Shown: one piece after another, positions 10,979 to 55,817 of the stretch | How positions within the stretch are numbered: the stretch's first letter is position 1 | Layout of the letters: the number at the start of each line of letters is the position of its first letter | DNA from: a bacterium | GTDB lineage: Bacteria > Patescibacteriota > Minisyncoccia > Minisyncoccales > GWA2-46-15 | Assembly: GCA_030693425.1 (NCBI GenBank) | Contig: JAUYAM010000003.1 | Span: forward strand, 1 to 57,372 | DNA: 57,372 bases | Reading direction: 5' to 3' | Translations under genes and position numbers: made by a program | Notes under the pieces: generated by a model | Told to the model about the DNA's origin: nothing | The model's input: the letters and a program-made list of their open reading frames with translations, nothing else | Database searches by the model: none

Positions 10979-11135
10979 ACCCCGCACCAACTTTGCTTAA
11001 TTATTAGATTGCGCAGTGCGGGCAGCGAATAGCTGCACCCCGAACTGGAGCGAAGCGCTGCGCCCAATTACGGGGGTTTGCCTATTCGGCAAGCGCACTT
11101 CGCAAGATGCTTTTCTGGCAAAGTTGGTGCGGGGT
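10979..11135. repeat. 157-bp hairpin element with perfect 18-bp terminal inverted repeats (ACCCCGCACCAACTTTGC / GCAAAGTTGGTGCGGGGT), 9 nt upstream of the rpoB TTG
   Basis: Arms at 10979-10996 and 11118-11135, read directly. The interior holds two small hairpins with GAATAG-type loops (gcagc-gaata-gctgc; ttgcc-tattc-ggcaa). Termini and flanks (TAAA|CCCC...GGGG|TAAAA) resemble the 115-bp elements at 31594, 50256 and 50902. Confidence 0.8.
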
Positions 11136-19756: not shown

Positions 19757-19779
19757 TCATTGACGACAGTCGTCAATGA
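19757..19779. repeat. REP-like palindrome family 1 (TCATTGACGACAGTCGTCAATGA), immediately 3' of the transposase gene
   Basis: 23-bp perfect palindrome, ending 2 nt before the stop codon at 19781. Confidence 0.9.
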
Positions 19780-19780
19780 A

Positions 19781-20509: not shown

Positions 20510-23500
20510 TCATTGACGACTGTCGTCAACTGTCATTGGGCTTGGCACGGTTTCTAGCGACGCTAAAGGCTCGGGCGAGGGTTCGGGGCTGGGCGCGGGC
20601 GACGCTGCCGGGGTTTCACTTGGGGATGGTCCTTCGACAGGCTCAGGATAAACTACAGGCGATTCGCTCGGCGCCGGAGAAGGTTCTGGCGTTGGCGACG
20701 GCGTTTCCGGCGGCAGTGCGTTAACACCTGACGTTAAATCGGGCGCACCAACGTCAGGTGTTGGCGCGGCTGGTAAAACCGAATTATTAGACTGCGGGAA
20801 GGGCTGGTTGGCAGCGGATTTATCGCAATCCCCACGGAATTTCTGCCACTCGCCGTTCTCAATCCAGGTGCACCAGATCTCTCCGGTAGCCCGGTCAACC
20901 ATTTCAATCTTGTCCACGCGGGCGGTCTCGGCCGTGACTTTTCCGACAATGATTTCTTTGAGCTGAGCAATGCCGTTTTCCAGAATCAGGCCTAGAGAAG
21001 CTAAAACCTGCTTGATTTTCGCTTCCAGCCAAGGCATGGGCGTTTCCGAGCCGATGCCGCCTTCAGAATTCAAGTCAATGCCTAAAATTGTTTTAATCTC
21101 GGCAATGTCCTGATTTTGTTTCTTGGCCACTTCCAAGAGATAAAGCGGGATCTTGTCGTATTTCAAGCCATTGGGAAGGCCGTCTTTGTCGTAAATAACC
21201 AACTCGCCCAAACCGACATTGGCAAATTCTTCGGCAATAAAGCCGATTTCTTCATGGCCAGAGGCCTTGTCAGTAAAGAGTTTCGGCGAAACTTCTAAGA
21301 TTTTATTAAAGTCGACTTCAAATAAACGGATGTTATCTTTGTATCTTTGAGAAGAGGAATCGTAATAGAAGTTGCCGGTAGCAGTGTCAACCCTGACAAG
21401 ATTGTAACTGGCTGTGCCGGTCAGGCCGGCAACGGCAAATTTGGTTCCAGGAGCTGTCGTCCCGATGCCGACGTTGCCGCCTGCCAAAATGACAAACTTG
21501 TCTCCGCCGACACCAGTAGATGAGTTTACTTCAAAAGCATTGGCAGTGGCGCCATCGGCCAAAACAATCTTTTGGCCAACCACAGCCGTAGAGCCGATAT
21601 TCAAAGTTAAGCTGGCCCCGGCTAAAGTCACCACGTCGCCAGCTTGAGTAAGCGTGGCATCGCCATTGTCCCAGTTAACCACCCCGCCTTCAGCTAAGAA
21701 CAGATCTGAGAATTGTAAAGCGGTTGTGCCTAAATAAGCGCCGTCATTGGCATCGGGAACGAAACCGGTGGCAGCGGAAACCAATATTGATTGCAGTTGC
21801 GCCGTAGAAGCATTGAATATCAAGCCGGCATTTGTTCTAGCGCCTAAACTACCGGACGCCGCTGTCGCAAACAAAGGAAAAGAGGTGGTGTCAGCCGCTT
21901 CATCTGCCACTGTCACAGTGACGGCGTTGCCCGTGATTGAACCGGCAATGACATTGGTAACTTCCAGGTCAGTAAACCAGCCTTTTACCACGCGGGTGCC
22001 TGTCGCGCCTAAAGAACCTGTAATGTAAGATGTCCCAACTACATGGAGCGGAGCGCCTGGATCTATTGTCCCGATGCCGACGTAGCCGGCAAAATAAGCG
22101 GCGCCGTCTGAATCAATGTTAGCCACTTCGCTTCCGTTTTTGGTTTGGATGGAGAGTTTGGTGTTTCCGGAATTATCGCCGAGTTTTAGGTTAAGGTTAG
22201 CCTGGTTATTGGCTTTAATGTTGGCGGCGGTGAGGGAATCAATTGCCAGTTCTCCCTCGGTCATGGTCAGGCTGCCGGTGAGGGTTAAGTCTTTAGTAGT
22301 AATGGATTTTTGGACAGTTAAATCACCGGACTGGCTCATGGAAAACTTCCCGCCGGCGACACCGAAATCAAACTCTTTGGATTTAAGCTTGCCGGAAAAA
22401 TTGGCAGTCACAGCGTTTAAGTCTTTGACAACAGTCAAATCTCCGTTTCCGGAGAGGTTGGCTAACTGGGTCTTAACTCCTAGATTATCTAGTTTATAAA
22501 ATGTAATATTTCCGTCAGTATCAACAGCCAAATTCGGGTTGTACCAGGAAATATTTACCAGCATTGATATTTTTCCACAGGTTATAGAAGGATCGGTGCC
22601 GGAAGGACAGTTAATTATTTGCTCCGGATGATTAATTGGGTCAAAAGCCTCTAAGGCCTTGCCCACTGACGGTCCGACGTTGGTGGCTTTCATGCCAAAG
22701 CCGGGAATGGCGGAAGAGGTAAGAATATCGCCGATGTTGACTTGACCATTGGCAGTAGAGACTTTTATAGGAACTCTACCAGACATGGCAATGGGTTGAG
22801 GATTAGTGGAAAAATTAATTACTGCTCTCCCGAATGTTTGGACCGGAGAAGTTGAAACAATTCCTAATACCTCTTTCTGATAAGATTGATCAGCTTTTTT
22901 TACAATAGTTACTGTTTTTTGTTCGTTTTCGCCAAGAAGTTCTCCAGTTAGAGCGTTTACCTTAGGAGATTCGTAGTTCAAGGTTTGATTTGTGGCTGAA
23001 ACAATGTCAGCCGGCTCAACTCCGGTTTCTGCAGGATACCACTCGGCAATGTCTCCCGGCGCTGCTGAGCAAGCAACAATATCACGGTCGACAAAAGTGG
23101 TATCAGAGTCGGCACCTGAATGGCACAGTCCATTGGTGGTGGCGGTACCATTAGAATCAAGTTGAATATCCCCATTAACCTCAAATTCTTGACTCGGTGC
23201 CACCCCGATGCCGACGTAGCCGGCAGCGGTTATTGTCATTCTTGTAGAAACAGCGGCGCTGCTTTCAGTAGTTTGAAGATAAATTGCTCCGCCAGTGCCA
23301 TCAGTTGTTACGCTTACACCGCCAACTCCACCCCTTAAATATAAAACTCCTCCTGTGCCGCCAAGTGTATCTCCAGTCCCGCCTATTCCACCATATACAT
23401 AAGCATTTCCGCCAGCGCTACCTTGTAGCCCACCAGCTCCCCCAGTTCCACCCCTTAAATATGAAGCCCCGCCAACGCCAGAAGTATCTGAAGTCCCGCC

Positions 23501-26500
23501 AGAAGCCACTCCGCCTGTTCCTCCAGTTAAAGTAATTCCTCCGCCTGCTCCGCCCACCCTTGTTGTTCCTATCGTAGTTGCCGTCCCGCCAGTTCCTCCT
23601 GTAATAGTTGCAGTTCCACCTTTACCGCCAGTAGAGGAGGTCGCAGCCGAACTGGCAACACCTCCAACTCCACCCGCAAAAGTAAAGTCTGCTCCTATTC
23701 CGCCAACTCCAGTTGAAGCAATTGAGGTTGTCCCGCCTATTCCGCCTGAAATTACCAAAGTATCTGTTGCCGCAGTCCCCGGAGTTGTGCCGGCATCCGC
23801 GGGTTGTGATCCGGCAATGTTGAGCACTGCAGTTGGTGTCGCGTCTCCGATGCCGACGTTGCCAGTAGAATCTAATATCATTTTTTGATCCGCACCGATA
23901 TACCAGTTGAAGCCGGGACCCCTGAAATCAAGGCCTGTTGACGAAACACCTAACCCGTGTACCGCATTACTATCACCATCGTCATAGAGCTTAAGTTTCA
24001 TATTCGCTCCTCCAGTATTTGAATATGTGCCTCCGAGTGACAACGTAACAGGAGTAGCTGTTTCTACCGGGCTTTGTGTTCCAATCTGGAGAGTATTCAA
24101 CGGACTGGTCGTCCCGATGCCGACGTTACCAGCATTTGTAATTGTCACAGCAGCATTTGTCAAATCTGCACTTGTGACATCAGCGGCTGATTGAGCCAAA
24201 AAGTGTAATGACCCTCTACCATAAGTAGAAGTTCGCTCGAATACAATCGCTGACTTTATTGGATAATCAGAACCACTAGAATATGAAGCAAACCCCATGC
24301 CCACAAAAGCATTAGTAGCTATATTTCCTTGTATACGTAGGTCAAATGTGTTTGGCGCAGAGTACTGAATATGAAGTCTACCTTGTGGCGCTGTCGTCCC
24401 GATGCCGACGTTGCCGGCTCCTGCTTCTGAGACAAAAGCATAGGTGTTGGTTACAGACGATCCTCCACTGGTGGTTGGCGCGGCGGCATAGTTCAGGTAG
24501 AGATTGGTGACCACGCTGGTTGTCCCAATCCCGATGTTTCCGCTGGCATAGTTGACAAACAGATTGGTAAGTTGGGGCGATGTCCCTCCTATCCCAATGT
24601 TCGGTCTGTTGTATAAACCATAGATCGAAGTTACCGGAGTAGCCGAAGCCATTGTTCCCGTGTAACTGTTGTTGAGCTTGGTGGTGTAGTATGTTCCCGC
24701 ACTGACGGCTGTAACTGACTGACCAATATCCAAAGTTCCTCCTGGCCCCGTCGTCCCGATGCCGACGTTGCCACTGTTTGTTATTCTCATTCTCTCGTCG
24801 GCCATCCCCACTGGGCCTGCATCGGAAGCAGAATCATTTAAAAATACTATATCGCCCTTACCCCAAAAACCAGTAGTGTTAACGTATCCAATAGCACCCT
24901 TTCCCATTCTCCCCGCCGCACCATCCACAAGAAAATTTTGAAAAACGGTATATCCGATGTCATTGTAGGGATTTGCAAGGATTGAGGCGTAGACAACTCC
25001 CGATGCGGCGACAGGTGAAACGTGAAGTGTGGCTAATGGTCCCGTTGTCCCGATGCCGACGTTGCCGGCATTTGCTTCTGTGACAAAAGCATATTTGTTA
25101 GTCAAGGTGCCTGCGGTTACTGTAGGAGCGGCGATGTAAGAACCATACCAATTTGTTACCGTTGTCCCACTTTTATTTAAAGTAAAACCACTCTTTTGAT
25201 TGAATATGTTGGTAACAGTATTACCAGTGTATGTGGGATTGACATCCAAATAACCGCCCGGAGACCCTGTCGCGATGCCGACGTTGCCCCCACCTGTAAC
25301 TAGTGCGTAACCAGTAGTTGAAGTAAAGTAGCCCCCAATACCCGATGAAGCATTCTGTCCATACACGCCATAGCCGGTACTGCTGTTATATCCATGCACA
25401 CCTTTGCCGGCGGCGCCAGCGTTAGATCCATACACGCCGTAGCTGGTGCCGGTGCCATATATGCCGGCGTTGGCTACACCGGCACCTCCAACACTCAATG
25501 TCGATATGGGTCCCGTTGTCCCGATGCCGACATTCCCGCCTGCCAGGATAACAAACTTGTCCCCGCCCACTCCGGCTGAAGAATTGACTTCAAAAGCATT
25601 GGCAGTGGCGTTGGCAGCCAGGACAATCTTCTGGCCGACTACGGCAGTGGAACCGATACCAAGGTGCAAAAGGGCAGTAGGTGCCGTCGTCCCGATGCCG
25701 ACGTTGCCGCCTGTATTGAAATAACTGTTTCCGTTATACCCTCTAAAACGAATTGTTGGAGTTACGCTACTATCACTACTAAATAAGTCGAAATATCCGC
25801 CTGAGTTATTCCCTAACAAAGATCCTGCACGGATAGAGCCAGTTGTTAAATTTATTCCAGTACCTTCTGTTGCACCAACTATGTCTAACTTATACCCTGG
25901 CCCTGTCGTCCCGATGCCGACGTTGCCGCCGTCATACACTCCAAAAATTGTGGAGCCATTGTCCCTTGCCAAGAAAATTGGGGAAGTTTGAGTACCATTG
26001 TCTGCAATTAAAGCTGCTGATTCAAAAGTGGGTGTAGTATTTTGCAGCCCAAAATAACCAGCGATTTGTATCGGAGAGGTGCCGGTATTAAGTCCAAAAG
26101 CGGCTAATCCAATATTTGTGGCTGAGTTCTTGGCAATGGTAGCTCTGCCTAAGATGCCGAAATTTACATTGCCGTTTTCTCCCAAACCAAACAGACCAAT
26201 GTTTGTACCCGTTGTTGTACCATAAGCTAGACTGTTATTGCCTATATTGGTAGAAGGAGAAGTAGCTGCGGTAGAAAGATTCAAATTCGTCCCTGTTCCC
26301 GCGACCGAATTTCCGATAAATAATCCACGGGCACCAGAAGTACCCGTGTAACCAGCATTATATAATATTCTCATTGCTCCATTGTTAAAACTGGAACTTC
26401 CAGCACTGGTAACATTAACATCGATTCCAAATTGCACATTTGTTATAACTGTGGGTTGGGTGGCGGTTATACTTAAACTATTAGTCTGGTCAGTAAGTGT

Positions 26501-29500
26501 TCCACTTGCAATATCCAGTGTTGCCCCCGGTGCCGTCGTCCCGATGCCGACGTTGCCGCTACTATCAATTCTCATTCTTTCGGTAGAACTTTCCGAGCCG
26601 TCGGCAGTTGTCCAAAAACTTAAACGCCCTGGCATATCTCCTGCACCTGGTGTGCCATCTACGTAAGCAGCGATGTATGCGGCAGTTGACTGATAGTCAA
26701 CACCATCATCTCCGCCCCAAGCAATCATTCCTAACTGGTCATTGTTTTGTGCGATTGTGTAGCTACCGATGGCAGCATTACGGCTTTTGCCAAAAATTAA
26801 CTTAGGCGCAAGGGCATCTGCTGATGCTCGAAATATACCAATTGATGAATCTACCGCACCCGTTCCCAATACTTGCAATTCTGGTATCTGACCGGCTCCT
26901 GAGCCAGCCGTTAGTGTCACCTGTGATGAGTTGCCAATGATTAAACCAAATCCATTTGATATTTCAGTATCCCCATTAACCGTTAATACATTACCAGGTA
27001 AAGTCGTCCCGATGCCGACGTTGCCGGCTCCTGCTTCTGAGACAAAAGCATAGGTGTTGGTGACCGATGACCCACTATTTAAAGTTGGCGCGGCTGCATA
27101 GTTCAGGTAGAGATTGGTGACCACGCTGGTTGTCCCAATCCCGATGTTTCCACTAGTGTAGTTAACAAACAGATTGGTCAGCTGGGGTGATGTTCCTCCT
27201 ATCCCGACATTCGGCCGGTTATACAAACCATAGATACTCGTCACCGGAGTGGCTGAAGCCATTGTTCCCGTGTAACTGTTGTTGAGTTTGGCGGTGTAGT
27301 ATGTCCCAGCGCTTGCTGCCGTGACTGCCTGACCAATATCCAATGTCCCTCCCGGACTCGTCGTCCCGATGCCGACTAGGCCCGCCGAAGTGACAACGAA
27401 GGAGGCCGTTGCCGAACTATTGACTTGAAAAATTTGTGATGGCGCCGTCGTCCCGATGCCGACGTTGCCGGCTTTCAGATATAAAGTATTGACAATGGCG
27501 CCGGTGTTTACCGATGTGAAAGGCACGACCGAGTTTTGAGTCAGAGTAAAATCCGCGCCCGGAGCAATGTTGGCGATGACCGGAGAGGTAATAGTGGGCG
27601 AAGCGTTAAAAACTGCAAGCCCTGTGCCTGTTTCGTCGGTTACGGCAGCAATCAAGTTCGCAGATGTCGGGGTTCCGAGGAATGTCGCCACACCTGTGGC
27701 AAGTCCACTTACACCTGTGCTGATAGGCAACCCAGTGGCGTTGGTAAGCACACCTGAAGCAGGAGTGCCTAATGCTGGAGCCACAAACGTTTTATTACTC
27801 ATCGTCTGGGCTTTGGTTTTGAAAGTGAACTCATCCACTACATTGGCAAAATCTGGGATAGTCAGAGTCGTAGCCCCAACTGTTTGGGCGGTAAGTGCGA
27901 CATCTACAAGATACGCATTTGTTAATTTAAGAGGAGTAGCCGCGGAAGTTGCGAGAGAGGTTGCAGAAGCTACGCCGAGAGTTGGAGTTGTCAAAGCAGG
28001 CGAGGTTGAAAATACTAAATTAGTTGATGTAGTGCCAGTTGCGCCTGCGGCGGTATAACCCGTGATATTGTTAAATAAAGTAATTGAAGCAGTTGAACCT
28101 CCTGTCCCACCGTCTGCAACTGCAACATCATTTCCTCCTGTGCTGTAAATTGTTCCCGTTATTCCTTGTAGAGTTAGAGTTGTCGTTCCCGCTACTGCGG
28201 CGGCATTCAAAATAGATGAACCAGAAGTTGAACCGGCGAGAATAAACTTATCAACAGCCCCTCCGATAGTTCCAAATGTTTTAGCTCCTGTTACCGTTTG
28301 AACAGAAGCAAGAACCATATCTCCAGCCCCGGCAGTAGCCCAAGTTAATACTCCCGCACCATCTGTTTGCAATAATTGGTTCGCGGTTCCATCATCGATG
28401 GGTAGAGTAAGCGTGTAAGTTCCTGCTGCTGCGGCAGGTTGAATGATAATTTTACCAGAAGTATTGCCAGCAAATGAAATAACACCCTTAGTAGTTCCTG
28501 CTAATCCTAATGATAATAATTCAAGTGGTGCCGTCGTCCCGATCCCTACATTCCCGCCTGCCAGAATGACAAACTTGTCCCCGCCGACTCCGGCAGAAGA
28601 GTTGACTTCAAAAGCGTTGGCAGTAGCTCCCGAAGCCAAAACAATCTTTTGACCGACAACAGCGGTGGAACCGATGCCTAAATGTAATAAAGCGGTGGGA
28701 GCGGTAGTGCCGATGCCCAGATTGCCGTTAATTCCTACAACATCTGTCGAAAAATCTCCCCAGATTAAAGGCGAGGAGGAATTTGAATTTTCAATGTATA
28801 GTTTATTAGAGCCCGTTTCGTTATATCCTGCTTGATAGCCAAAAAATATGTTGCTGGAACCATCGCCATTGTAACCAGCTGCATAACCTATCAAGACATT
28901 ATTAGTGCCGGTATTAAGGGCGGCAGTAGTATAGCCAATAGCAATACTATTGCCTCCAGCAATGGCATTTTTACCCACAGCCACAGCTTGATTGCCGGTC
29001 GTGCTCGCATCGGATCCTATGGCCACGCCCCTGTAAGCAGCAGAAGCGTTGGAACCAATAGCAACGGCTCTGCTGTTAGTAACGGTAGCAACGTACCCTA
29101 TTGCCACTGATTCGGTAAAAGAACCGACAGAAGCAAGATAACCAAACTTTTCGCTCGAACTATTGGTCAAACTTGTAATATTTCCGACCACCTGCAAGGC
29201 TGCTATCGGTTCCGTCGTCCCGATGCCGATGTTGCCGCTTCCTAAAATTGTCATTGCTTGGGCCAGAGCACTGTCTGTGGTGCTGGTGATGGCGGTAATG
29301 CTGACAGTTGCTCCTGTCCCTGTTCCGCCGGTGGTTACCTTGCCCGTGCCGGTCGTGTAGCCTGTTCCTGCCGCCGCCGGAGCCGTGTTCAAGGTTAGAA
29401 CCACGCCGCTTCCATCAACTGTGGCTACCGTCACTGTTCCACCCGTTCCTCCAGTCGTAACCGTCAAAGTGTCAGCGGCAGTGTAACCAGTCCCGCCAGC

Positions 29501-30955
29501 GGTAGGTGTTGCGCTTATGGTGCTGATACCTCCTGTGGTTAGAGCAGAAGAAGTCCAGAACTGTATTTGTCCCGTCCCCGTTCCCGTGGAAAGACCAGAA
29601 GAAAGAACCAGTGACCCACCATTTTTATCTGTGGCCCCACTGGTTGCTCCACCGGCATTGACCGTCAAAGCATATCCGGCCGTATCGGCAACCGTCCCCC
29701 GTTCCATACCAAAACCTCTGGCCGCATCGCCGCCTAATCCAAGTAAACGAGTCGGTCCCGTCGTCCCGATGCCGACGTTGCCGGCAGTGGAATCAATGAT
29801 CAATCCATAAGAAGTGCCTGATGTGACTGTTCCTCCGGTTATCTTTAAGCCGGTAGAGGTGACTGTACCCGTTGTTTGAGTGATATTCGGCATCGTGACG
29901 TCAAGCCCTGTCCAGGTGTCTGTGCCGGTGAGTGTGTTCTGGACCAAGGCGCCGCCGGTAATAACCAGGCCTTTGTAAGCATAGGTTGAGGCGCCGGTGT
30001 TGGTGACAGCCGGCAAGCTAATGGTTTGGCCGGTCGCGGAATAACCCGTGGCCGTGATATTGGTTGACAAATCTATTGCCTGGCCAACCAAATTGCCTGC
30101 TAAAGTGGCGGCTGCTCCGTAAGCCAGGTTCAGGACAGTGCCCGAAGTATTCTTGGAGTTTAAATAAGCCAGGTTGGCAGAAGAGACATTGGTGCCGGTT
30201 AAAGTCAGGGCCGTGGCATTGGATCCTGGCACGGCTGACAGGATGGTGAAAGCGCCGGTTGAGGGTGTAGTAGAACCAATGCCGGCGGGCGAACCCCAGG
30301 TATAGCCGCTTAATTGCTTGGCTTCAAAGGCAGCCGGCACTGCGCCCAAAACTTTTCTCGGCTTCATTTCCGAGTCAGCGCCGACAGTGACGCCTAGATA
30401 AAGCGTCTGGTTGAAGTTGACTGAACTCAAAGATGTAATTGTCCCTAGCATTGTCGAGAACAAGCCGTTCTTAACATAAATCCGATTGGTAATGTCGTCG
30501 TTACTCACCCAGGTTGAAGCCGGATCGTAAAAGCAGACATAACCGCCAGCTCCTGCGGCGCTGACTGACTGAATGACGGCTGATTCCTTTTTGGTCGTGT
30601 TCCACAAATACTGGCCAGCTGCCAAAGCGCTTTCGTTGGTATCGGTGGTATATGCCATCTTATCCACCCCGGTAGCACAGCCGTCATTGGTAAAAGTGGT
30701 GGTGCCGGTTTCGGTAAACAAAGCAGCGCTGGTCCAAGACTCGGTCCAGCTGGTCGAACCGCCGCCGGCAACGGTATAAAGATTGAAAACAATGTCATAG
30801 GCATTGTCAGCCACTGCCTGACTGCTGGTATCAGTTAATTTTCCCTGGTAATTGATTTTTTCATTTATCGCTGCCAAAGACTCCTGGACAAAAACAGCCC
30901 TAAAGAGGAGAAGGAGCAGAAGGATAATACAGATTTTGGCAGCTTTGTTGTTCAT
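20510..30955 (-). CDS. Giant secreted fibre/adhesin-like protein with about 24 GNVGIGTT repeats and a C-terminal tail-fibre-type intramolecular chaperone domain
   Basis: Uninterrupted ORF. Start chosen at ATG 30955 (MNNKAAKICIILLLLLLF... signal peptide). The track start at 31015 would overlap the upstream gene by 44 nt. The tail is Pro/Ser-rich. Confidence 0.9.
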   Translation of the reverse strand: MNNKAAKICIILLLLLLFRAVFVQESLAAINEKINYQGKLTDTSSQAVADNAYDIVFNLYTVAGGGSTSWTESWTSAALFTETGTTTFTNDGCATGVDKMAYTTDTNESALAAGQYLWNTTKKESAVIQSVSAAGAGGYVCFYDPASTWVSNDDITNRIYVKNGLFSTMLGTITSLSSVNFNQTLYLGVTVGADSEMKPRKVLGAVPAAFEAKQLSGYTWGSPAGIGSTTPSTGAFTILSAVPGSNATALTLTGTNVSSANLAYLNSKNTSGTVLNLAYGAAATLAGNLVGQAIDLSTNITATGYSATGQTISLPAVTNTGASTYAYKGLVITGGALVQNTLTGTDTWTGLDVTMPNITQTTGTVTSTGLKITGGTVTSGTSYGLIIDSTAGNVGIGTTGPTRLLGLGGDAARGFGMERGTVADTAGYALTVNAGGATSGATDKNGGSLVLSSGLSTGTGTGQIQFWTSSALTTGGISTISATPTAGGTGYTAADTLTVTTGGTGGTVTVATVDGSGVVLTLNTAPAAAGTGYTTGTGKVTTGGTGTGATVSITAITSTTDSALAQAMTILGSGNIGIGTTEPIAALQVVGNITSLTNSSSEKFGYLASVGSFTESVAIGYVATVTNSRAVAIGSNASAAYRGVAIGSDASTTGNQAVAVGKNAIAGGNSIAIGYTTAALNTGTNNVLIGYAAGYNGDGSSNIFFGYQAGYNETGSNKLYIENSNSSSPLIWGDFSTDVVGINGNLGIGTTAPTALLHLGIGSTAVVGQKIVLASGATANAFEVNSSAGVGGDKFVILAGGNVGIGTTAPLELLSLGLAGTTKGVISFAGNTSGKIIIQPAAAAGTYTLTLPIDDGTANQLLQTDGAGVLTWATAGAGDMVLASVQTVTGAKTFGTIGGAVDKFILAGSTSGSSILNAAAVAGTTTLTLQGITGTIYSTGGNDVAVADGGTGGSTASITLFNNITGYTAAGATGTTSTNLVFSTSPALTTPTLGVASATSLATSAATPLKLTNAYLVDVALTAQTVGATTLTIPDFANVVDEFTFKTKAQTMSNKTFVAPALGTPASGVLTNATGLPISTGVSGLATGVATFLGTPTSANLIAAVTDETGTGLAVFNASPTITSPVIANIAPGADFTLTQNSVVPFTSVNTGAIVNTLYLKAGNVGIGTTAPSQIFQVNSSATASFVVTSAGLVGIGTTSPGGTLDIGQAVTAASAGTYYTAKLNNSYTGTMASATPVTSIYGLYNRPNVGIGGTSPQLTNLFVNYTSGNIGIGTTSVVTNLYLNYAAAPTLNSGSSVTNTYAFVSEAGAGNVGIGTTLPGNVLTVNGDTEISNGFGLIIGNSSQVTLTAGSGAGQIPELQVLGTGAVDSSIGIFRASADALAPKLIFGKSRNAAIGSYTIAQNNDQLGMIAWGGDDGVDYQSTAAYIAAYVDGTPGAGDMPGRLSFWTTADGSESSTERMRIDSSGNVGIGTTAPGATLDIASGTLTDQTNSLSITATQPTVITNVQFGIDVNVTSAGSSSFNNGAMRILYNAGYTGTSGARGLFIGNSVAGTGTNLNLSTAATSPSTNIGNNSLAYGTTTGTNIGLFGLGENGNVNFGILGRATIAKNSATNIGLAAFGLNTGTSPIQIAGYFGLQNTTPTFESAALIADNGTQTSPIFLARDNGSTIFGVYDGGNVGIGTTGPGYKLDIVGATEGTGINLTTGSIRAGSLLGNNSGGYFDLFSSDSSVTPTIRFRGYNGNSYFNTGGNVGIGTTAPTALLHLGIGSTAVVGQKIVLAANATANAFEVNSSAGVGGDKFVILAGGNVGIGTTGPISTLSVGGAGVANAGIYGTGTSYGVYGSNAGAAGKGVHGYNSSTGYGVYGQNASSGIGGYFTSTTGYALVTGGGNVGIATGSPGGYLDVNPTYTGNTVTNIFNQKSGFTLNKSGTTVTNWYGSYIAAPTVTAGTLTNKYAFVTEANAGNVGIGTTGPLATLHVSPVAASGVVYASILANPYNDIGYTVFQNFLVDGAAGRMGKGAIGYVNTTGFWGKGDIVFLNDSASDAGPVGMADERMRITNSGNVGIGTTGPGGTLDIGQSVTAVSAGTYYTTKLNNSYTGTMASATPVTSIYGLYNRPNIGIGGTSPQLTNLFVNYASGNIGIGTTSVVTNLYLNYAAAPTTSGGSSVTNTYAFVSEAGAGNVGIGTTAPQGRLHIQYSAPNTFDLRIQGNIATNAFVGMGFASYSSGSDYPIKSAIVFERTSTYGRGSLHFLAQSAADVTSADLTNAAVTITNAGNVGIGTTSPLNTLQIGTQSPVETATPVTLSLGGTYSNTGGANMKLKLYDDGDSNAVHGLGVSSTGLDFRGPGFNWYIGADQKMILDSTGNVGIGDATPTAVLNIAGSQPADAGTTPGTAATDTLVISGGIGGTTSIASTGVGGIGADFTFAGGVGGVASSAATSSTGGKGGTATITGGTGGTATTIGTTRVGGAGGGITLTGGTGGVASGGTSDTSGVGGASYLRGGTGGAGGLQGSAGGNAYVYGGIGGTGDTLGGTGGVLYLRGGVGGVSVTTDGTGGAIYLQTTESSAAVSTRMTITAAGYVGIGVAPSQEFEVNGDIQLDSNGTATTNGLCHSGADSDTTFVDRDIVACSAAPGDIAEWYPAETGVEPADIVSATNQTLNYESPKVNALTGELLGENEQKTVTIVKKADQSYQKEVLGIVSTSPVQTFGRAVINFSTNPQPIAMSGRVPIKVSTANGQVNIGDILTSSAIPGFGMKATNVGPSVGKALEAFDPINHPEQIINCPSGTDPSITCGKISMLVNISWYNPNLAVDTDGNITFYKLDNLGVKTQLANLSGNGDLTVVKDLNAVTANFSGKLKSKEFDFGVAGGKFSMSQSGDLTVQKSITTKDLTLTGSLTMTEGELAIDSLTAANIKANNQANLNLKLGDNSGNTKLSIQTKNGSEVANIDSDGAAYFAGYVGIGTIDPGAPLHVVGTSYITGSLGATGTRVVKGWFTDLEVTNVIAGSITGNAVTVTVADEAADTTSFPLFATAASGSLGARTNAGLIFNASTAQLQSILVSAATGFVPDANDGAYLGTTALQFSDLFLAEGGVVNWDNGDATLTQAGDVVTLAGASLTLNIGSTAVVGQKIVLADGATANAFEVNSSTGVGGDKFVILAGGNVGIGTTAPGTKFAVAGLTGTASYNLVRVDTATGNFYYDSSSQRYKDNIRLFEVDFNKILEVSPKLFTDKASGHEEIGFIAEEFANVGLGELVIYDKDGLPNGLKYDKIPLYLLEVAKKQNQDIAEIKTILGIDLNSEGGIGSETPMPWLEAKIKQVLASLGLILENGIAQLKEIIVGKVTAETARVDKIEMVDRATGEIWCTWIENGEWQKFRGDCDKSAANQPFPQSNNSVLPAAPTPDVGAPDLTSGVNALPPETPSPTPEPSPAPSESPVVYPEPVEGPSPSETPAASPAPSPEPSPEPLASLETVPSPMTVDDSRQ
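20513..20529. repeat. REP family 1 palindrome (TTGACGACTGTCGTCAA) between the giant ORF and the transposase gene
   Basis: Read directly. The central base is T, so it is inverted relative to 19757 and 20306. Lies 18 nt upstream of the transposase start and supplies the last codons (..DDSRQ) of the giant ORF. Confidence 0.9.
21060..21370 (-). other. Peptidase_S74-like intramolecular chaperone (endosialidase/tail-fibre C-terminal) domain within the giant ORF
   Basis: Translation YYDSSSQRYKDNIRLFEVDFNKILEVSPKLFTDK....EIGFIAEEFANVGLGELV fits the S-x-x-K-x-N-I ... IGFIAqE pattern of auto-cleaving tail-fibre chaperone domains. Coordinates are approximate. Confidence 0.6.
24393..24772. repeat. About 380-bp intragenic direct repeat, copy 1 (partner at 27003-27382)
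   Basis: Long blocks identical by eye (e.g. 'gtcgtcccgatgccgacgttgccggctcctgcttctgagacaaaagcataggtgttgg'). Encodes GGTLDIGQ.VTA.SAGTYYT.KLNNSYTGTMASATPVTSIYGLYNRPN.GIGGTSPQLTNLFVNY..GNIGIGTTSVVTNLYLNYAAAPT. Confidence 0.85.
25515..25708. repeat. About 190-bp intragenic repeat (copies at 21456-21606 partial, 25515-25708 and 28533-28726)
   Basis: Encodes GIGTTAPTALLHLGIGSTAVVGQKIVLA..ATANAFEVNSS.GVGGDKFVILAGGNVGIGTT three times. Nucleotide similarity seen directly. Confidence 0.8.
27003..27382. repeat. About 380-bp intragenic direct repeat, copy 2
   Basis: See 24393-24772. The mismatches are of all substitution types. Confidence 0.85.
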
Positions 30956-30971
30956 CAAAAATAATAAAAAG

Positions 30972-31442
30972 TTATGGCTGGGGAATGGTCGAACCCTGGA
31001 CCTCCTTAGTCTCATCTAAAGAATAATTGGTAAAAGCTGAAAGATTGAACCGGCCGATAGTCTCTCCGCCTGACCCGCCTAAAATGATTTTGTCAACTAT
31101 CATACTTTTAGGTTCGATAAAATCGCCAGCCCCGGCATTAATGTTCAAACCCAGGCCCAAAAAAATAAAAATACCAATACCCACCAAAACAAAAAACCAG
31201 GCCACTAAACCCAAAAGCCGGTCTGGTCTAAATAAACGCCTAAGCCTGACTGCCGGAAGAGAGATTTTTTTTAGGTGAAAATAGTTTTCAAGAGCTTGGT
31301 TAGCAATAAACCAGTCCCGACCGACCATTTTTCCTTTAAGTTTGCCTTTGCGGATTAATAAACCCAAATAATCCGGATGGTAGCCGGAAATATGCGACGC
31401 TTGCTTAAGGGAAAGAAACCCTTTTTCTGGAATAGTGGTCAT
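30972..31442 (-). CDS. Membrane-anchored protein with N-terminal excisionase/MerR-type helix-turn-helix
   Basis: LSLKQASHISGYHPDYLGLLIRKGKLKGKMVGRDWFI fits the HTH_17-type pattern, followed by one TM helix (LLGLVAWFFVLVGIGIFIFLGL). Paralogous N-terminus to 42392-43468. Confidence 0.75.
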   Translation of the reverse strand: MTTIPEKGFLSLKQASHISGYHPDYLGLLIRKGKLKGKMVGRDWFIANQALENYFHLKKISLPAVRLRRLFRPDRLLGLVAWFFVLVGIGIFIFLGLGLNINAGAGDFIEPKSMIVDKIILGGSGGETIGRFNLSAFTNYSLDETKEVQGSTIPQP

Positions 31443-31574: not shown

Positions 31575-31593
31575 CGGGCGCCTATGACAGTTT

Positions 31594-31708
31594 ACCCCGT
31601 TGCAATCCATAGCTTGGTTGATGTAATTATATTGACCAGAGCCGATAGGCGGCTACCGCCTCTTGGCCATAATATTCTCATTGGTTGTTGGCGGGATTGC
31701 TACGGGGT
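31594..31708. repeat. 115-bp hairpin element, third copy (intergenic), flanked by TTTACC direct repeats at 31591 and 31708
   Basis: 15-bp terminal stem ACCCCGTTGCAATCC / GGATTGCTACGGGGT with one T:T mismatch. The core GCCGATAGGCGGCT is at the same offset (nt 48-61) as in the pilin-gene copies. Confidence 0.8.
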
Positions 31709-31843
31709 TTACCCGGTAGGTTCTGTCAAAGCGGGATCCTTTGGGGGTCGGTTAGCTAAAAGGTGTGGAATAAAACTATAATTGCCTAGCATTTTCCACA
31801 TTATTGGAAAAACATCTCTCTTTATTCCCTGTTTTATGAATCT

Positions 31844-31863
31844 CCCCGCAGCAAGCTGCGGGG
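31844..31863. repeat. Hairpin CCCCGCAGCAAGCTGCGGGG (twin at 31912-31931)
   Basis: Read directly. The twin differs by a compensatory A:T to T:A swap in the stem. Both are followed by TAT. Confidence 0.8.
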
Positions 31864-31911: not shown

Positions 31912-31931
31912 CCCCGCTGCAAGCAGCGGGG
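31912..31931. repeat. Hairpin CCCCGCTGCAAGCAGCGGGG
   Basis: Read directly, 68 bp after its twin. Confidence 0.8.
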
Positions 31932-31949: not shown

Positions 31950-31977
31950 ATAAAAACTCCCCGTCTGTTAAACGGGG
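31950..31977 (-). terminator. Rho-independent terminator after gene 32008-32775
   Basis: Minus-strand CCCCGTTT-AAC-AGACGGGG (8-bp stem including one G:U) followed by AGTTTTTA, about 30 nt downstream of the stop. Confidence 0.65.
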
Positions 31978-32007: not shown

Positions 32008-32775
32008 TTATTGGGTCGTTGCCGTGCCGGTAATGTCGGCGGTATAGGAACCGTTAGGCGCGTAAACATTTTTTTGCTCGGCGGCAACGCAAAAAGAGGT
32101 GTCGGTACCAGAAGACGGATCGGTTCTCGCGTTTGAAGAAGCGATTTGAATAACGGTTGTGCTGGTAAAACCGCGATATTTAAGATTGTTCGCAGAAGGA
32201 CTGGTGCAGCTGGAACCGGTTCCCCAGGTAGCAGTAGAAACATCATTGCCAAAGGCCGAAAAGCCAAACTGGTACTGGCTTTCATTAACATTCCAGGTTT
32301 CCGGCGTCCCGCTGGTGACTTCGGAATAGTCGGTAAAGCACTCGACATCGCCGGCAGTGCATAAGGTACTAGTTTTGTCGGTTTTTAAAGTCAGGGTATA
32401 GCCGCCGGGATTGTCGGTCTTAATATTCCAAGCAGCGCCGCCGGAAGCGTTAGTCACCGGCACGACCGTGCTCAAAGACATGTCCGAAAGCGAAAGATTG
32501 CTTGCGGGCACGGTTAAAGAGATATAGACTTCCTGAAGCTCTTGGTAACCGGCCTTGAGCTTATAGCTGGAGCTTGCCATCTCGCCGGTACCGACCTCGC
32601 CGATAGTGTCGCTGGAAAGATAATTAGTTGATTTCTGATCCACCCCGCCGACATTGACGCTATCGTCCTGGATAATATAGTTTTCGCTCTTCATGGCAGA
32701 AACAAAAGAGGCAATGACAAACAGCGTCGCCATGACTGCTAAAAAACGGTTTTTTAAGAATTCGATTTGCGTCAT
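32008..32775 (-). CDS. Secreted surface protein (paralog of 40858-41505)
   Basis: Signal anchor LAVMATLFVIASFVSA. Shares W.(I/V)KT...G..L.LK, FTDY(S/T)EVT..TPETW.V, Y.FGF, WG.G(S/T)SC, KY.GF and YAPNGSY.AD(I/V)TGTAT with the paralog. Confidence 0.8.
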   Translation of the reverse strand: MTQIEFLKNRFLAVMATLFVIASFVSAMKSENYIIQDDSVNVGGVDQKSTNYLSSDTIGEVGTGEMASSSYKLKAGYQELQEVYISLTVPASNLSLSDMSLSTVVPVTNASGGAAWNIKTDNPGGYTLTLKTDKTSTLCTAGDVECFTDYSEVTSGTPETWNVNESQYQFGFSAFGNDVSTATWGTGSSCTSPSANNLKYRGFTSTTVIQIASSNARTDPSSGTDTSFCVAAEQKNVYAPNGSYTADITGTATTQ

Positions 32776-43588: not shown

Positions 43589-43835
43589 GTATCCGATATC
43601 ATTATCGGATACTAGAAATATTAAGGTAATTTTCTTATCTGTTGAGTTTCCGTTGAGGCCTAACCTCAACAGGAGTAAATCCCTACAACGAGGAATATAC
43701 GGTTCAGCTACGACCGTAGCTGAAAGTGAAGTTAATACCTTCTCCTTGACCTTATTTTTCTTAGTTGACGACTGTCGTCAACGAGGGCACATGATATTTC
43801 GGGTTAAGGCGTGTGCTTAACCTGGTTAAGCACAC
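43589..43835. repeat. Array of five different perfect palindromes spaced 47-63 bp apart
   Basis: 43589-43612 gtatccgata/tatcggatac; 43652-43670 gttgagg/cctcaac; 43703-43724 ttcagctacg/cgtagctgaa; 43764-43782 gttgacgac-t-gtcgtcaac (REP family 1); 43811-43835 gtgtgcttaac/gttaagcacac. Confidence 0.85.
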
Positions 43836-49773: not shown

Positions 49774-50385
49774 TCACCAATTGTAAAGCTTTTCGCTGGC
49801 TAAAAAAGAATGCGTCCTGCCTTTTTCTTGCCAAAGAACCTGGACCTCGATTTTCAAGATATCTGTGTCTGGGTCCGGGTTTTCCGAAGCGTCTTCTGTC
49901 GTCAGAGTAATTTTCCTCTGGTAGCTCGTCGCCTGGCCTAAAGCATAATTGTAAAAACTGCCGTCGTTCAGCAAATTACGCCCTGTTGTCCAAGGAGTTA
50001 AAGACTGGCTGGAATAATCTGCTTCGCAGCCAGTAGCAGCGCATCCAGTCAGGCCGGTCAGCCAATCAACTTCTTTTACTTTATTGCTATCTCTTAAGTT
50101 CCTAATGATTTCTATTCCTTCCTGGGCCAGATAGCTTGCCATCAGCCTTTGCCCGGAAAGCGGCAAAAAACTCGTCGTTTGCTGGACCAGCGAGAAAACG
50201 GCGATAATGGCGACAACCATTATAAACAAAGAAAACAAAACTTCCAAAAGAGTGAACCCCCACACCAAGCCTTTATTGGGCTGTTTGTTTACACTAACCG
50301 AAGCCGATAGGCGGCTTCGCCTTATAGCCAATGGAGATTTACTAGTTAAACGCGGGTTTGGTGTGGGGGTGAATCCGTTTTTCAT
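49774..50385 (-). CDS. PilV-like minor pilin with a 39-codon insertion in its leader peptide
   Basis: MKNGFT-[insert]-WGFTLLEVLFSLFIMVVAIIAVFSL, then LAQEGIEIIRNL (PilV-like). Confidence 0.82.
   Translation of the reverse strand: MKNGFTPTPNPRLTSKSPLAIRRSRLSASVSVNKQPNKGLVWGFTLLEVLFSLFIMVVAIIAVFSLVQQTTSFLPLSGQRLMASYLAQEGIEIIRNLRDSNKVKEVDWLTGLTGCAATGCEADYSSQSLTPWTTGRNLLNDGSFYNYALGQATSYQRKITLTTEDASENPDPDTDILKIEVQVLWQEKGRTHSFLASEKLYNW
50256..50370. repeat. 115-bp hairpin element, copy A, inside the pilin leader-coding region
   Basis: Terminal stem ACCCCCACACCAAGCC / GGGTTTGGTGTGGGGGT, central hairpin GAAGCCG-ATAGG-CGGCTTC, and TTCAC direct repeats 117 bp apart (50373-50369 and 50256-50252, minus sense). 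Confidence 0.85.
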
Positions 50386-50386: not shown

Positions 50387-51031
50387 TTAATAAATTTCGA
50401 TTAGACCGGCTTTGTTAACTCTAATCGTCTTATGCTTGCCTGAAACTTGTTTTATGGCGACGGTTGCCGTCGCCTCGTTGGCTCCGCCGGAAATCGTTAC
50501 CAAGGGGATCGGTGGCGTAAAAACGACGTTCAAAACTGAACCAGAAGACAGACTGCTGATTTCCAGTCTTTCTCCCAAACTAACTTCTTCTACTTTCTCC
50601 GAATATCCGCCTTCGCAAGGAGTGCCGGCAGCAGTATATTGGTAGTTTTGGTCGCAATCGGCAAAAAGAGTATAAAGGCTATCTCCTGCCCTTAAATAGA
50701 CGCCGTAGCCTCCTCTGGGGATTTTCCCGTGAAATTCTTTGGCAGACATGGCCATTTCCTCCATCCTTCTGAAATCCTGACCGAGCTTGGCCGCCGATTC
50801 TTCCAGGGAAAAACTTTTCTCTCCCAAGCGGTAATTTACCAGAACCAAAAAAAACAAAACCAAAATGATAGTCATCACCACCAGCAACTCGATCAGGGTA
50901 AACCCCCACACCAAACCTTTGTTAGGCTGTCTGTTTACACTGACTGAAGCCGATAGGCGGCTTCGCCTTATGGTCAATGAAGATTTACTAGCTAAACGCG
51001 GGTTTGGTGTGGGGGTAAAACCGTGTTTCAT
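50387..51031 (-). CDS. FimT/GspH-like minor pilin with the same 39-codon insertion in its leader peptide
   Basis: MKHGFT-[insert]-WGFTLIELLVVMTIILVLFFLV, then EESAAKLGQDFRRMEEMA (GspH/FimT-like). Confidence 0.82.
   Translation of the reverse strand: MKHGFTPTPNPRLASKSSLTIRRSRLSASVSVNRQPNKGLVWGFTLIELLVVMTIILVLFFLVLVNYRLGEKSFSLEESAAKLGQDFRRMEEMAMSAKEFHGKIPRGGYGVYLRAGDSLYTLFADCDQNYQYTAAGTPCEGGYSEKVEEVSLGERLEISSLSSGSVLNVVFTPPIPLVTISGGANEATATVAIKQVSGKHKTIRVNKAGLIEIY
50902..51016. repeat. 115-bp hairpin element, copy B, inside the pilin leader-coding region
   Basis: 16-bp perfect terminal stem. I count 10 mismatches to copy A over 115 nt. TTTACC direct repeats lie 117 bp apart (51019-51014 and 50902-50897, minus sense). 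Confidence 0.85.
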
Positions 51032-55816: not shown

Positions 55817-55817
55817 G

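What the first reader, a model, noticed from the sequence alone, without database searches (positions are those of the whole stretch)
31591..31713. Third, intergenic copy of the 115-bp element has a covarying terminal stem but identical geometry
Seen in sequence:
- 31594-31708 is again exactly 115 bp.
- It carries the same 14-nt core (GCCGATAGGCGGCT) at the same offset (nt 48-61).
- It is bracketed by TTTACC direct repeats 117 bp apart (31591 and 31708).
- Its 15-bp terminal stem (ACCCCGTTGCAATCC / GGATTGCTACGGGGT) differs from the pilin copies at most positions beyond the first five, while the arms stay complementary to each other (one T:T mismatch).
- Relative to the TTTACC repeat, the core is inverted compared with the pilin copies. 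That fits insertion in either orientation.

Inference:
- Compensatory change on both arms points to selection on a hairpin (ssDNA or RNA), not on a transposase-binding TIR sequence.
- The TT(T/C)AC flank is reminiscent of IS200/IS605-family targeting; IS608 inserts 3' of TTAC.
- Two Y1 HUH transposase-like genes lie in this window, so hairpin-guided ssDNA mobilisation is plausible.
Basis: partly seen in the sequence, partly recalled or inferred. Interest (0 to 1): 0.8.

Follow-up and report, generated by a model that had tools for sequence, protein, structure and literature searches.

The report
Promoter-seeking miniature transposon of CPR bacteria
The 115-bp "third copy" is a real copy of a ~110-bp non-coding jumping element (a MITE) that is widespread in the tiny CPR/Patescibacteria bacteria.

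Summary
The window has three copies with the core GCCGATAGGCGGCT at the same offset and complementary arms that differ in sequence.

**Boundaries.** The element is 113 bp (CCCC...GGGG).

**Family.** Collection scans recovered 134 unique related elements from many CPR lineages:
- 43 have perfect 4-nt flanking direct repeats (TTGA/TCAA 29, TTTA/TAAA 9, TTCA/TGAA 2, other tetramers 3), against 0 in a control.
- An orthologous pilin gene gives the empty site, with a single TTTAC.
- 27 of 29 TTGA-flanked copies lie on a TTGACN-17-TAnnnT promoter, against 27% of other intergenic TTGAC sites.

**Structure.**
- Arm covariation is strong (11 of 14 pairs compensatory).
- G:T and A:C mismatches are balanced.
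- The ~30-nt spacers are barely self-complementary.
- The core occurs in both orientations relative to the target.
- The window's two Y1 genes carry their own, different palindromes.

**Verdict.** This is a MITE moved in trans by a DDE-type transposase. Its ends and duplication resemble piggyBac/IS1380, but no parent element was found. The IS200/IS605 idea is not supported. The conserved central double mini-palindrome and the promoter association remain unexplained.

The parts
31595..31707 (.). Copy 3 of the MITE (113 bp, CCCC...GGGG). It is intergenic, between ORF 32008-32775(-) and ORF 30972-31442(-).
   Evidence: 69 bits on the + strand. Identical in the independent assembly L177.
31591..31594 (+). 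Left copy of the 4-bp target-site duplication, TTTA
31708..31711 (+). Right copy of the 4-bp target-site duplication, TTTA
31595..31608 (.). Left terminal inverted repeat, CCCCGTTGCAATCC
31694..31707 (.). Right terminal inverted repeat, GGATTGCTACGGGG (one T:T mismatch with the left arm)
31641..31661 (+). Conserved central module GCCGATAGGCGGCTACCGCCT: two abutting mini-palindromes at the midpoint of the element
50257..50369 (.). Copy 1 (113 bp), inserted in frame in the prepilin leader of ORF 49774-50385(-). TSD is TGAA (TTCA on the gene strand) at 50253-50256 and 50370-50373.
   Evidence: 83.3 bits. The prepilin motif starts at residue 43.
50903..51015 (.). Copy 2 (113 bp), inserted in frame in the prepilin leader of ORF 50387-51031(-). 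TSD is TAAA (TTTA on the gene strand) at 50899-50902 and 51016-51019.
   Evidence: 83 bits. The empty site in ortholog L178/P0002 is shown.
10980..11134 (.). Related 155-bp MITE with the same TIR head (CCCCGCACCAACTTTGC, 17/17 complementary) but different cargo. TSD is TAAA at 10976-10979 and 11135-11138. It lies just upstream of the rpoB start.
   Evidence: A TTGACA-18-TATAAT promoter lies upstream of it. No Rfam match.

Best explanation
**What it is.** Copy 3 (31595-31707) and the two pilin copies belong to a family of about 107-114-bp non-autonomous DNA transposons (MITEs) that is widespread in CPR/Patescibacteria.

**Anatomy.**
- 14-20-bp terminal inverted repeats that start 5'-CCC(C)(G/A).
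- Two spacers of about 30 bp that are free in sequence but fixed in length.
- At the exact midpoint, a conserved ~20-bp module made of two abutting mini-palindromes, GCC-GNNA-GGC | GGC-TNC-GCC.

**How it moves.**
- Shown: insertion duplicates a 4-bp target, TTNA (TTGA > TTTA > TTCA; TTAA seen once).
- Shown: insertion occurs in either orientation and can hit the duplicated target again, which gives tandem arrays.
- Inferred: a cut-and-paste DDE-type transposase supplied in trans binds the two inverted repeats as double-stranded DNA and makes 4-bp staggered cuts in the target.
- A lead only: the CCC...GGG termini plus a TTNA 4-bp duplication match the piggyBac / IS1380 signature, but no parent element was found.

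**Why the arms covary.** Both ends must fit the same transposase variant, which produces subfamilies. The central module is probably a cis-acting site needed for transposition, for example a hinge or accessory-protein site that lets two ends only ~110 bp apart synapse. That part is inferred.

**Where copies survive.** Surviving copies sit where the duplication restores function:
- On TTGA|CA of promoter -35 hexamers.
- In TTYA|C of the Gly-Phe-Thr codons of prepilin leaders. There the terminal GGG plus the duplication rebuild G-F-T, the 117-nt insert stays in frame, and the extra 39 residues should be removed with the leader.
For: **The family is real**
- A core-based scan of 185,579 species genomes gave 75 loci. 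About 44 are CPR MAGs with the same geometry; the rest are GC-rich chance hits.
- 44 of 45 complete copies found through the core alone have complementary arms, in at least six sequence classes.
- A TIR-based metagenome scan that is blind to the core found mostly ~110-bp elements with the same central motif at offset 44-47.

**Target-site duplication**
- 43 of 134 unique elements have 4/4 identical flanks, against 0 of 134 in an offset control. The repeats are TTGA/TCAA 29, TTTA/TAAA 9, TTCA/TGAA 2 and other tetramers 3.
- T...A-ended variants fix the duplication at 4 bp.

**Empty sites**
- Pilin orthologs P0002-P0004 (78-84% identical) read MKHGFTLIELL with no 39-residue insert.
- At DNA level L178 has a single GGCTTTACATTGATC, where the window has GGTTTTA|CCCCC...GGGGG|TTTA|CCCTGATC.

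**Independent insertions**
- The pilin A and B elements are 91% identical, while the mature pilins are 21% identical. Each has its own matched duplication (TTCA, TTTA).
- P0078 and P0054 are other pilins hit at the same site.

**Other points**
- Tandem copies share one TTGA.
- The core lies in both orientations relative to the target: 9 same and 15 opposite for TTGA.
- Other cargoes carry the same TIR and duplication: window 10980-11134, L151, L158, L165, L175.
- DNA-level indications: G:T 12 against A:C 9 mismatches, and spacer self-complementarity z = -0.57.
- Promoter association: 27 of 29 copies, against 27% of intergenic and 3.6% of genic control TTGAC sites.
- piggyBac has a TTAA duplication (variants TCAA, TAAA) and CCC TIR starts (PMC10813416). 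piggyBac pairs with the prokaryotic IS1380 family (PMC5718144).
Against: - No autonomous element with these ends, and no DDE transposase gene, was found in the window or in 1.33 Mb of fetched loci.
- tblastn with the ISEcp1 transposase against those loci gave a best E-value of 0.6.
- About a third of the copies lack a recognisable duplication. Many of these sit without one inside a conserved three-hairpin composite in ribosomal-protein operons.
- A 20-bp centre conserved across phylum-level lineages is unusual for a MITE and has no tested function.
- The 93% promoter association exceeds what simple survival in intergenic DNA predicts (27%). Something beyond 'TTNA specificity plus purifying selection' may be at work.
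Confidence: 0.8

Rival explanations
1. The element is a single-stranded DNA hairpin mobilised by a Y1 HUH transposase (IS200/IS605- or RAYT-like), which cleaves next to TTYAC guided by the hairpin.
For: - Two Y1_Tnp genes are in the window, and one resembles REP-associated tyrosine transposases.
- The flanks, TTGA(T/C) and TTYAC, resemble the IS608 (TTAC) and ISDra2 (TTGAT) targets. This rests on my own knowledge.
- The arms can pair, with fold z-scores of -5 to -8.7.
Against: - The target tetranucleotide is duplicated. IS200/IS605 elements make no duplication.
- The ends are true inverted repeats, not unlike subterminal hairpins.
- The core lies in both orientations relative to TTGA within one TIR subfamily.
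- The Y1 genes carry their own different palindromes (I4, I6, I13, I14).
- A Y1 homologue is present in only 1 of 177 loci.
- The spacers are not hairpin-forming.
Confidence: 0.04
2. The element is primarily a host-useful structured RNA or cis-regulatory DNA module. Candidates are a transcription insulator or terminator upstream of promoters, an mRNA processing or stability hairpin, or a binding site for a CPR regulator. On this view its mobility is secondary, and the conserved centre is kept by host-level selection.
For: - The centre is conserved across distant CPR lineages while the spacers are saturated.
- The geometry is fixed.
- 93% of TTGA-flanked copies abut a promoter.
- A similar GCCGNNAGGCG apex occurs in a different, shorter hairpin in ribosomal-protein operons, where it must be transcribed.
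- The related 155-bp element lies in the rpoB leader.
Against: - No Rfam family matches.
- There is no strand asymmetry of G:U against A:C.
- The loop is GNRA in only about 60% of copies.
- The core shows no consistent orientation relative to the adjacent promoter (9 against 15).
- Conservation of the ends and centre can be explained by continual transposition alone.
Confidence: 0.13
3. Insertion is carried out by a site-specific (tyrosine, serine or DEDD) recombinase that crosses over within a short TTNA core. The flanking repeats would then be the two recombination joints and not a staggered-cut duplication.
For: - The flanking repeat is drawn from a very narrow set (TTGA, TTTA, TTCA).
- Insertion repeatedly hits the same kinds of site, namely -35 boxes and the pilin GFT codons.
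Against: - The repeat sequence follows the target, not the element: TTCA in pilin A, TTTA in pilin B, with 91%-identical elements.
- The perfect terminal inverted repeats are typical of DDE transposons.
- No recombinase gene is linked to the copies.
Confidence: 0.03

Closest known systems
Correia / NEMIS elements of Neisseria (bacterial MITEs)
   Same: - 100-155-bp non-coding elements with TIRs and a short target-site duplication.
- Many dispersed copies, usually next to genes.
- A central protein-binding site (IHF) in the long form, and effects on neighbouring promoters (PMC2229807).
   Different: - Correia elements duplicate TA and have 24-26-bp TIRs of one sequence within one genus.
- Here the duplication is 4 bp (TTNA), and the TIRs start with CCCC and fall into many covarying subfamilies.
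- The centre is a GC-rich double mini-palindrome, not an IHF site.
- The family spans many CPR lineages.
- The target is the -35 hexamer itself.
Rickettsia palindromic elements (RPE)
   Same: Palindromic repeats of about 105-146 bp, found both in intergenic DNA and inserted in frame in protein-coding genes, where they are tolerated (PMC2229807).
   Different: - RPEs have no clear duplication and insert in many proteins.
- Here the in-frame cases seen are all at one site, the G-F-T codons of prepilin leaders. There the duplication rebuilds the cleavage motif and the insert should be cut off with the leader.
piggyBac superfamily and prokaryotic IS1380 family, and MITEs derived from them
   Same: - 4-bp duplication of a TTAA-like target. 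The variants TCAA and TAAA are reported for piggyBac.
- TIRs beginning CCC (PMC10813416).
- piggyBac is paired with IS1380-like transposases of prokaryotes (PMC5718144).
- ISEcp1, an IS1380 member, starts CC.
   Different: - No transposase of this family was found near any copy.
- The preferred target is TTGA, not TTAA.
- piggyBac itself is eukaryotic.
- Membership is therefore only a lead.
REP / REPIN sequences with RAYT (Y1) transposases, and IS200/IS605-derived PATEs
   Same: Short palindromic repeats dispersed in intergenic DNA. Y1 genes of this type are present in the window, each with its own palindromes.
   Different: - REPs, REPINs and PATEs make no target duplication.
- They carry a conserved 5' tetranucleotide (GTAG or CGTC for REPs, PMC3733652).
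- They flank their RAYT or derive from unlike IS ends.
- None of these features holds for this element.

Membership tests
MITE (non-autonomous DDE-type transposon) | Terminal inverted repeats | tested here: met
   Arms of 14-20 bp are 98% paired across 71 distinct copies. 44 of 45 copies retrieved through the core alone have such arms.
MITE (non-autonomous DDE-type transposon) | Target-site duplication of fixed length flanking each copy | tested here: met
   43 of 134 copies have perfect 4-nt direct repeats, against 0 of 134 in the control. T...A-ended variants fix the length at 4 bp.
MITE (non-autonomous DDE-type transposon) | Filled and empty alleles of the same site, with one copy of the target in the empty site | tested here: met
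   L178 has a single TTTAC where the window has TTTA-element-TTTA. The protein orthologs lack the 39 inserted residues.
MITE (non-autonomous DDE-type transposon) | Small, non-coding, multi-copy and dispersed | tested here: met
   Elements are 107-114 bp. There are 3 copies in 57 kb here and several per MAG. No ORF of its own is conserved.
MITE (non-autonomous DDE-type transposon) | A full-length element with the same ends that encodes the transposase | tested here: inconclusive
   None was found in the window or in 1.33 Mb of loci. Whole genomes could not be searched.
IS200/IS605-type (Y1 HUH) element or PATE | Insertion 3' of a target tetra- or pentanucleotide without duplicating it | tested here: not met
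   The target is duplicated.
IS200/IS605-type (Y1 HUH) element or PATE | Unlike left and right ends with subterminal hairpins, and fixed polarity relative to the target | tested here: not met
   The ends are inverted repeats. The core lies in both orientations relative to TTGA, 9 against 15, and 5 against 9 within one subfamily.
REP / REPIN with RAYT | Copies flank or cluster with the cognate RAYT gene | tested here: not met
   The window's Y1 genes are flanked by other palindromes. A Y1 homologue is present in 1 of 177 loci.
piggyBac / IS1380-like | 4-bp TTAA-like duplication and CC(C) termini | tested here: met
   The duplication is TTGA, TTTA, TTCA or TTAA, and the termini are CCCC...GGGG. 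The comparison data come from PMC10813416.
piggyBac / IS1380-like | Transposase of that family present and associated with the ends | tested here: inconclusive
   tblastn with ISEcp1 Tnp against all loci and the window gave a best E-value of 0.6. Only flanks of MITE copies were available.
Any described RNA family (Rfam 15) | Match to a covariance model | tested here: not met
   There is no match on the element, even at E <= 10. Related loci also give none.

The most novel reading that the evidence does not exclude
The element is a promoter-directed mobile module. On this reading its transposition machinery recognises bona fide sigma-70-type promoters, through the -35 TTGACA together with a correctly spaced -10, possibly via promoter-bound RNA polymerase or promoter DNA structure. 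It rebuilds the -35 on insertion and stacks upstream of promoters. Its invariant central double mini-palindrome would be a functional site (hinge, regulator site or insulator) that CPR bacteria with minimal genomes use to rewire or buffer transcription. Insertion could be reversible, also in pilin leaders.
Probability: 0.15. Interest if true: 0.8.

Novelty: new member of a known kind. Interest (0 to 1): 0.55.

Why it matters
- CPR/Patescibacteria have very small, gene-dense genomes and are thought to carry few mobile elements. I found no paper describing MITEs in them.
- A family shared by many CPR lineages shows how selfish DNA persists in such genomes: it lands where its own 4-bp duplication restores the disrupted signal, either a -35 box or the Gly-Phe-Thr prepilin cleavage motif.
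- The copies are also useful markers. 27 of 29 TTGA-flanked copies point to a promoter, which could help annotate CPR promoters.
- In-frame copies explain the odd 'long-leader' pilin gene models.
- If the promoter preference is an active property of the transposase, it would be a new kind of target choice.

Tried and rejected
**Known RNA families.** Rfam gave nothing on the window at gathering threshold, at E <= 10 around copy 3, on 11 related loci, on the 155-bp relative, or on a CUGAUGAG-containing cargo in L073.

**Other collections.** The viral contig scan with the core gave 0 hits.

**Search for the autonomous parent.**
- I looked for inverted CCC...GGG ends 136-4000 bp apart in all loci. 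Only tandem or nested MITEs and larger non-coding relatives turned up.
- I located ISEcp1 (IS1380 family) on plasmid pC15-1a by querying with the start of the neighbouring beta-lactamase gene. I used its transposase in tblastn against all loci and the window and found nothing.

**Y1 link.** tblastn with both window Y1 proteins against the loci gave one hit, 2 kb from an element.

**Peptide search.** A search with the 42-residue insert peptide returned no candidates. This is a limit of the word index, since P0078 does contain the peptide.

**Contig look-up.** P0078 is not on record for contig look-up.

**Whole-element hairpin.** Rejected, because the spacers are only weakly self-complementary.

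**Structure of the centre.** The alternative single 5-bp hairpin AGGCG/CGCCU has no compensatory support. The two mini-hairpins have only 4 compensated cells. The structure of the centre is therefore unresolved.

**GNRA tetraloop.** Rejected as a strong signal: about 18 of 30 loops are GNRA in the core-blind sample.

**Other ideas.** CRISPR, integron attC and DGR were considered from the sequence and dropped. There are no arrays, no cassette context and no A-specific differences.

Full report
**1. The observation**

The sequence is as described.
- TTTACC lies at 31591 and 31708, 117 bp apart.
- The arms ACCCCGTTGCAATCC / GGATTGCTACGGGGT have one T:T mismatch.
- The 14-nt core GCCGATAGGCGGCT lies at 31641.

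The core occurs three times in the window, always on the + strand (31641, 50303, 50949). None of 100 shuffles reached three matches.

The other two copies lie inside two adjacent minor-pilin genes on the minus strand, ORFs 49774-50385 and 50387-51031. An independent assembly (L177) contains copy 3 base for base.

A covariance model of the family (R1) finds exactly three full copies in the window, at 83, 83 and 69 bits. The next hit scores 17.6 bits.

**2. True boundaries**

Comparison with many relatives shows that the element runs from CCCC to GGGG. That is 113 bp in all three window copies, and 31595-31707 for copy 3. The flanking direct repeat is 4 bp.

Members of the form TTGA|TCCCGC...GCGGGA|TTGAC have a T...A pair as the outermost TIR position and differ in the fifth flank base. 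The duplication is therefore TTGA, not TTGAC.

**3. The family**

An exact-pattern scan of one genome per species with the core gave 75 loci.
- About 44 are MAGs of Patescibacteria: Moran-, Parcu-, Sacchari-, Niyogi-, Sungii- and Wildermuthbacteria, plus several bins labelled Bdellovibrionales.
- These have the same geometry: core about 45 nt from the 5' end and total length about 110 bp.
- The other hits are GC-rich chance matches with no arms.
- 44 of 45 complete copies found through the core alone have complementary arms. The arms fall into at least six sequence classes: CCCCGCACC, CCCCACACC, CCCCGTTAG, CCCCGCCC, CCCCTCCCC and CCCCGTAGG.

A metagenome scan using only one arm class, and therefore blind to the interior, returned 101 stretches.
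- Most are about 110-bp elements with the same central motif at offset 44-47.
- Its consensus is AGCCGnnAGGCGGCTnCGCCTT.
- A minority carry other interiors.

The viral contig scan found none. No Rfam family matches the element.

**4. Evidence that it is mobile DNA that duplicates its target**

*Flanks.* Among 134 unique elements with enough flank, 43 have identical 4-nt flanks, against 0 in a control offset by 10 nt. The repeats are TTGA/TCAA 29, TTTA/TAAA 9, TTCA/TGAA 2 and other tetramers 3.

*Empty site.*
- Pilin B reads MKHGFT[PTPNPRLASKSSLTIRRSRLSASVSVNRQPNKGLVWGFT]LIELLVV.
- Its closest homologues (78-84% identical) read MKHGFTLIELLVV and are 39-40 residues shorter.
- At DNA level the ortholog has ...CATGGCTTTACATTGATCGAG... 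with conserved upstream sequence.
- The window has ...CACGGTTTTA|CCCCCACACC...GGTGTGGGGG|TTTA|CCCTGATCGAG....
- The next gene of that contig is likewise empty at the pilin A site.

*Independent hits.*
- The pilin A and pilin B elements are 91% identical, while the mature pilins share 21% identity.
- Each element carries its own matched duplication, TTCA or TTTA.
- P0078, an unrelated pilin from another MAG, has nearly the same insert at the same G-F-T site. P0054 has an insert with the same ends but another interior.

*Re-use of the duplicated target.* Tandem copies are separated by a single TTGA, and several copies have another element's GGGG end directly upstream.

*Other cargo, same ends.* The window element at 10980-11134 (155 bp, TAAA/TAAA, 17/17 complementary ends) and elements of 148-301 bp in other loci share the TIR head and the duplication.

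**5. Hairpin or TIR?**

The arm covariation is real and strong.
- 11 of 14 arm pairs show changes on both sides.
- 98% of cells are paired.
- 0 of 500 shuffles reach the observed score, and sliding the partner columns drops pairing to 40-58%.

This is also what co-evolution of both ends with a transposase predicts, so it does not discriminate. Three further tests point to double-stranded DNA.
- G:T mismatches (12) are no more frequent than A:C mismatches (9), so neither strand is favoured.
- The two ~30-nt spacers are barely more self-complementary than shuffles. The mean z is -0.57, and 13% of copies are below -2. The element is therefore not a continuous hairpin.
- The core occurs in both orientations relative to the oriented target TTGA: 9 same and 15 opposite overall, and 5 against 9 within the CCCCGCACCTTTT subfamily.

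A strand-specific Y1 mechanism would fix this polarity.

**6. The Y1 genes**
- ORFs 19781-20494 and 48039-48749 match PF01797.
- The second is closest to NCBIfam 'REP-associated tyrosine transposase', below its cut-off.
- Each is bracketed by its own palindromes: TTGACGACAGTCGTCAA, and CCCGAGGTCAGACCTCGGG with arms at 47997-48024 and 48776-48803 (I4, I6, I13, I14).
- Only one of 177 fetched loci holds a homologue.
- The ORF next to copy 3 is a weak HTH/excisionase-like protein, not a transposase.
- The window is otherwise ordinary CPR chromosome: recA, ftsK, rpoB/C, dprA, ligA, ftsW, glycosyltransferases and pilins.

**7. Where the copies sit**

I oriented the copies so that the duplication reads TTGA. 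The downstream sequence then has C at +4 (31 of 40), A or T at +5, G at +21, T at +23, A at +24 and T at +28. That reads as TTGACA, a 17-nt spacer, then (TG)nTAnnnT.

| Sites | With TAnnnT 16-18 nt after the hexamer |
|---|---|
| TTGA-flanked copies | 27 of 29 |
| All other TTGAC sites in the same loci | 8.7% |
| Genic TTGAC sites | 3.6% |
| Crudely defined intergenic TTGAC sites | 27% |

Sources.

The duplication leaves an intact -35 next to the original -10, so the promoter survives. The excess over other intergenic sites is not explained by survival alone.

Copy 3 itself (TTTA) is not on a recognisable promoter.

In the pilins, TTYA|C lies in the Phe-Thr codons. The terminal GGG plus the duplication recreate G-F-T, and 113 + 4 = 117 nt keeps the frame. 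The opposite orientation would introduce a stop codon (my reading). The prepilin motif now starts at residue 43.

**8. The centre**

RNAalifold places two 3-bp mini-hairpins, GCC-GNNA-GGC and GGC-TNC-GCC, at the exact midpoint of the element. A few double changes support them: GAC...GTC, and GAC/GTC-type changes in the second hairpin. Only 4 compensated cells exist, and the alternative 5-bp hairpin has none.

Because the spacers are free in sequence but fixed in length, I infer a cis-acting architectural site. One possibility is a hinge, or a binding site for an accessory protein, that lets the two ends of a 110-bp DNA synapse. Correia elements carry a central IHF site as a precedent (PMC2229807). 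This inference is untested.

**9. Comparison with known systems and novelty**

The features met are those of a MITE. The combination of CCC...GGG ends and a 4-bp TTNA duplication is the hallmark of piggyBac, which is paired with the prokaryotic IS1380 family (PMC10813416, PMC5718144). No such transposase was found near any copy, so this remains a lead.

In-frame tolerance recalls the Rickettsia RPEs (PMC2229807).

I found no description of MITEs in CPR bacteria in the searchable literature.

**10. Verdict**
- The IS200/IS605 reading is not supported.
- The element is a new family of a known kind (a MITE).
- Two features remain unusual and unexplained: a phylum-spanning conserved centre and a striking association with promoter -35 boxes.

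Noticed in passing
window 10976-11138: A fourth, 155-bp MITE has the same TIR head (CCCCGCACCAACTTTGC, perfect 17-bp arms) and a TAAA duplication but a different interior. It ends about 10-20 nt upstream of the rpoB start. A perfect TTGACA-18-TATAAT promoter lies upstream at 11319-11290 (minus strand), so the element is probably in the rpoB leader.
   Followed up: partly
window 47997-48803 and 16573-16605, 19751-19783, 20298-20330, 43765-43792: Each of the two RAYT-like Y1 genes has its own REP-like palindrome family. CCCGAGGTCAGACCTCGGG flanks and lies within 48039-48749. TTGACGACAGTCGTCAA lies next to and within 19781-20494 and at two other sites. These look like REP/RAYT systems in a CPR genome.
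   Followed up: partly
window 31844-31863, 31912-31931, 31959-31977: Three short CCCCGC...GCGGGG-type hairpins lie next to copy 3. They match only the terminal stem of the MITE model (10-18 bits). The one at 31977-31959 (minus strand) is followed by a T-run and looks like the terminator of ORF 32008-32775.
   Followed up: partly
L134 10884-11120 (and L103, L105, L115, L164 and others): In many CPR ribosomal-protein operons the element is the middle of a conserved composite of about 240 nt made of three hairpins: TAAAGGGCTTTGT... | CCCC element | TGCTCAATTTTGT...GGCATG.
- The composite fills the whole gap from the stop codon of one gene to the start codon of the next (for example S11 to S4, and before L24, S8, L6 and S19).
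- It has no target duplication and no obvious Shine-Dalgarno sequence.
- The first hairpin has a GCCGTAAGGCG apex like the core.
- It has no Rfam match.
   Followed up: partly
proteins P0011, P0014, P0070 (GIY-YIG, PF01541) and P0034, P0052, P0064, P0077 (PF13366): Some homologues of pilin B carry a whole nuclease-like domain fused upstream of the G-F-T prepilin motif. The prepilin leader seems to be a tolerated landing site for several kinds of insert.
   Followed up: no
window 1-256: Bases 1-128 and 129-256 are 100% identical in tandem at the very start of the window. This is probably an assembly end artefact.
   Followed up: no
window 20510-31015 and 55818-57329: A 3501-residue ORF carries at least 16 repeats of a conserved DNA motif (GTCGTCCCGATGCCGACGTTGCC). 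The same motif occurs in the 503-residue ORF at the window's end. There is a weak YadA-head-like match, so this may be a giant repetitive surface protein.
   Followed up: no
window 55683-55825, 56080-56180 and 51040-51120: There are heptamer tandem repeats (TTGTTAG/TTGTCAG) around the 23S-rRNA-IVS-protein-like gene 55321-55731. AACATTTT / GTTAGAAT repeats lie just upstream of pilin B, and these are conserved in the ortholog contig L178.
   Followed up: no
window 16466-16496, 16599-16629, 19062-19092, 19226-19256, 45765-45795: Another small palindrome family (AAAGGAGCTTAGCTCCTTT) recurs in intergenic spots.
   Followed up: no
L073 6790-6912: A 123-bp element with the same ends and a TTGA duplication has an interior containing CUGAUGAG. 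There is no hammerhead or other Rfam match at E <= 1.
   Followed up: yes
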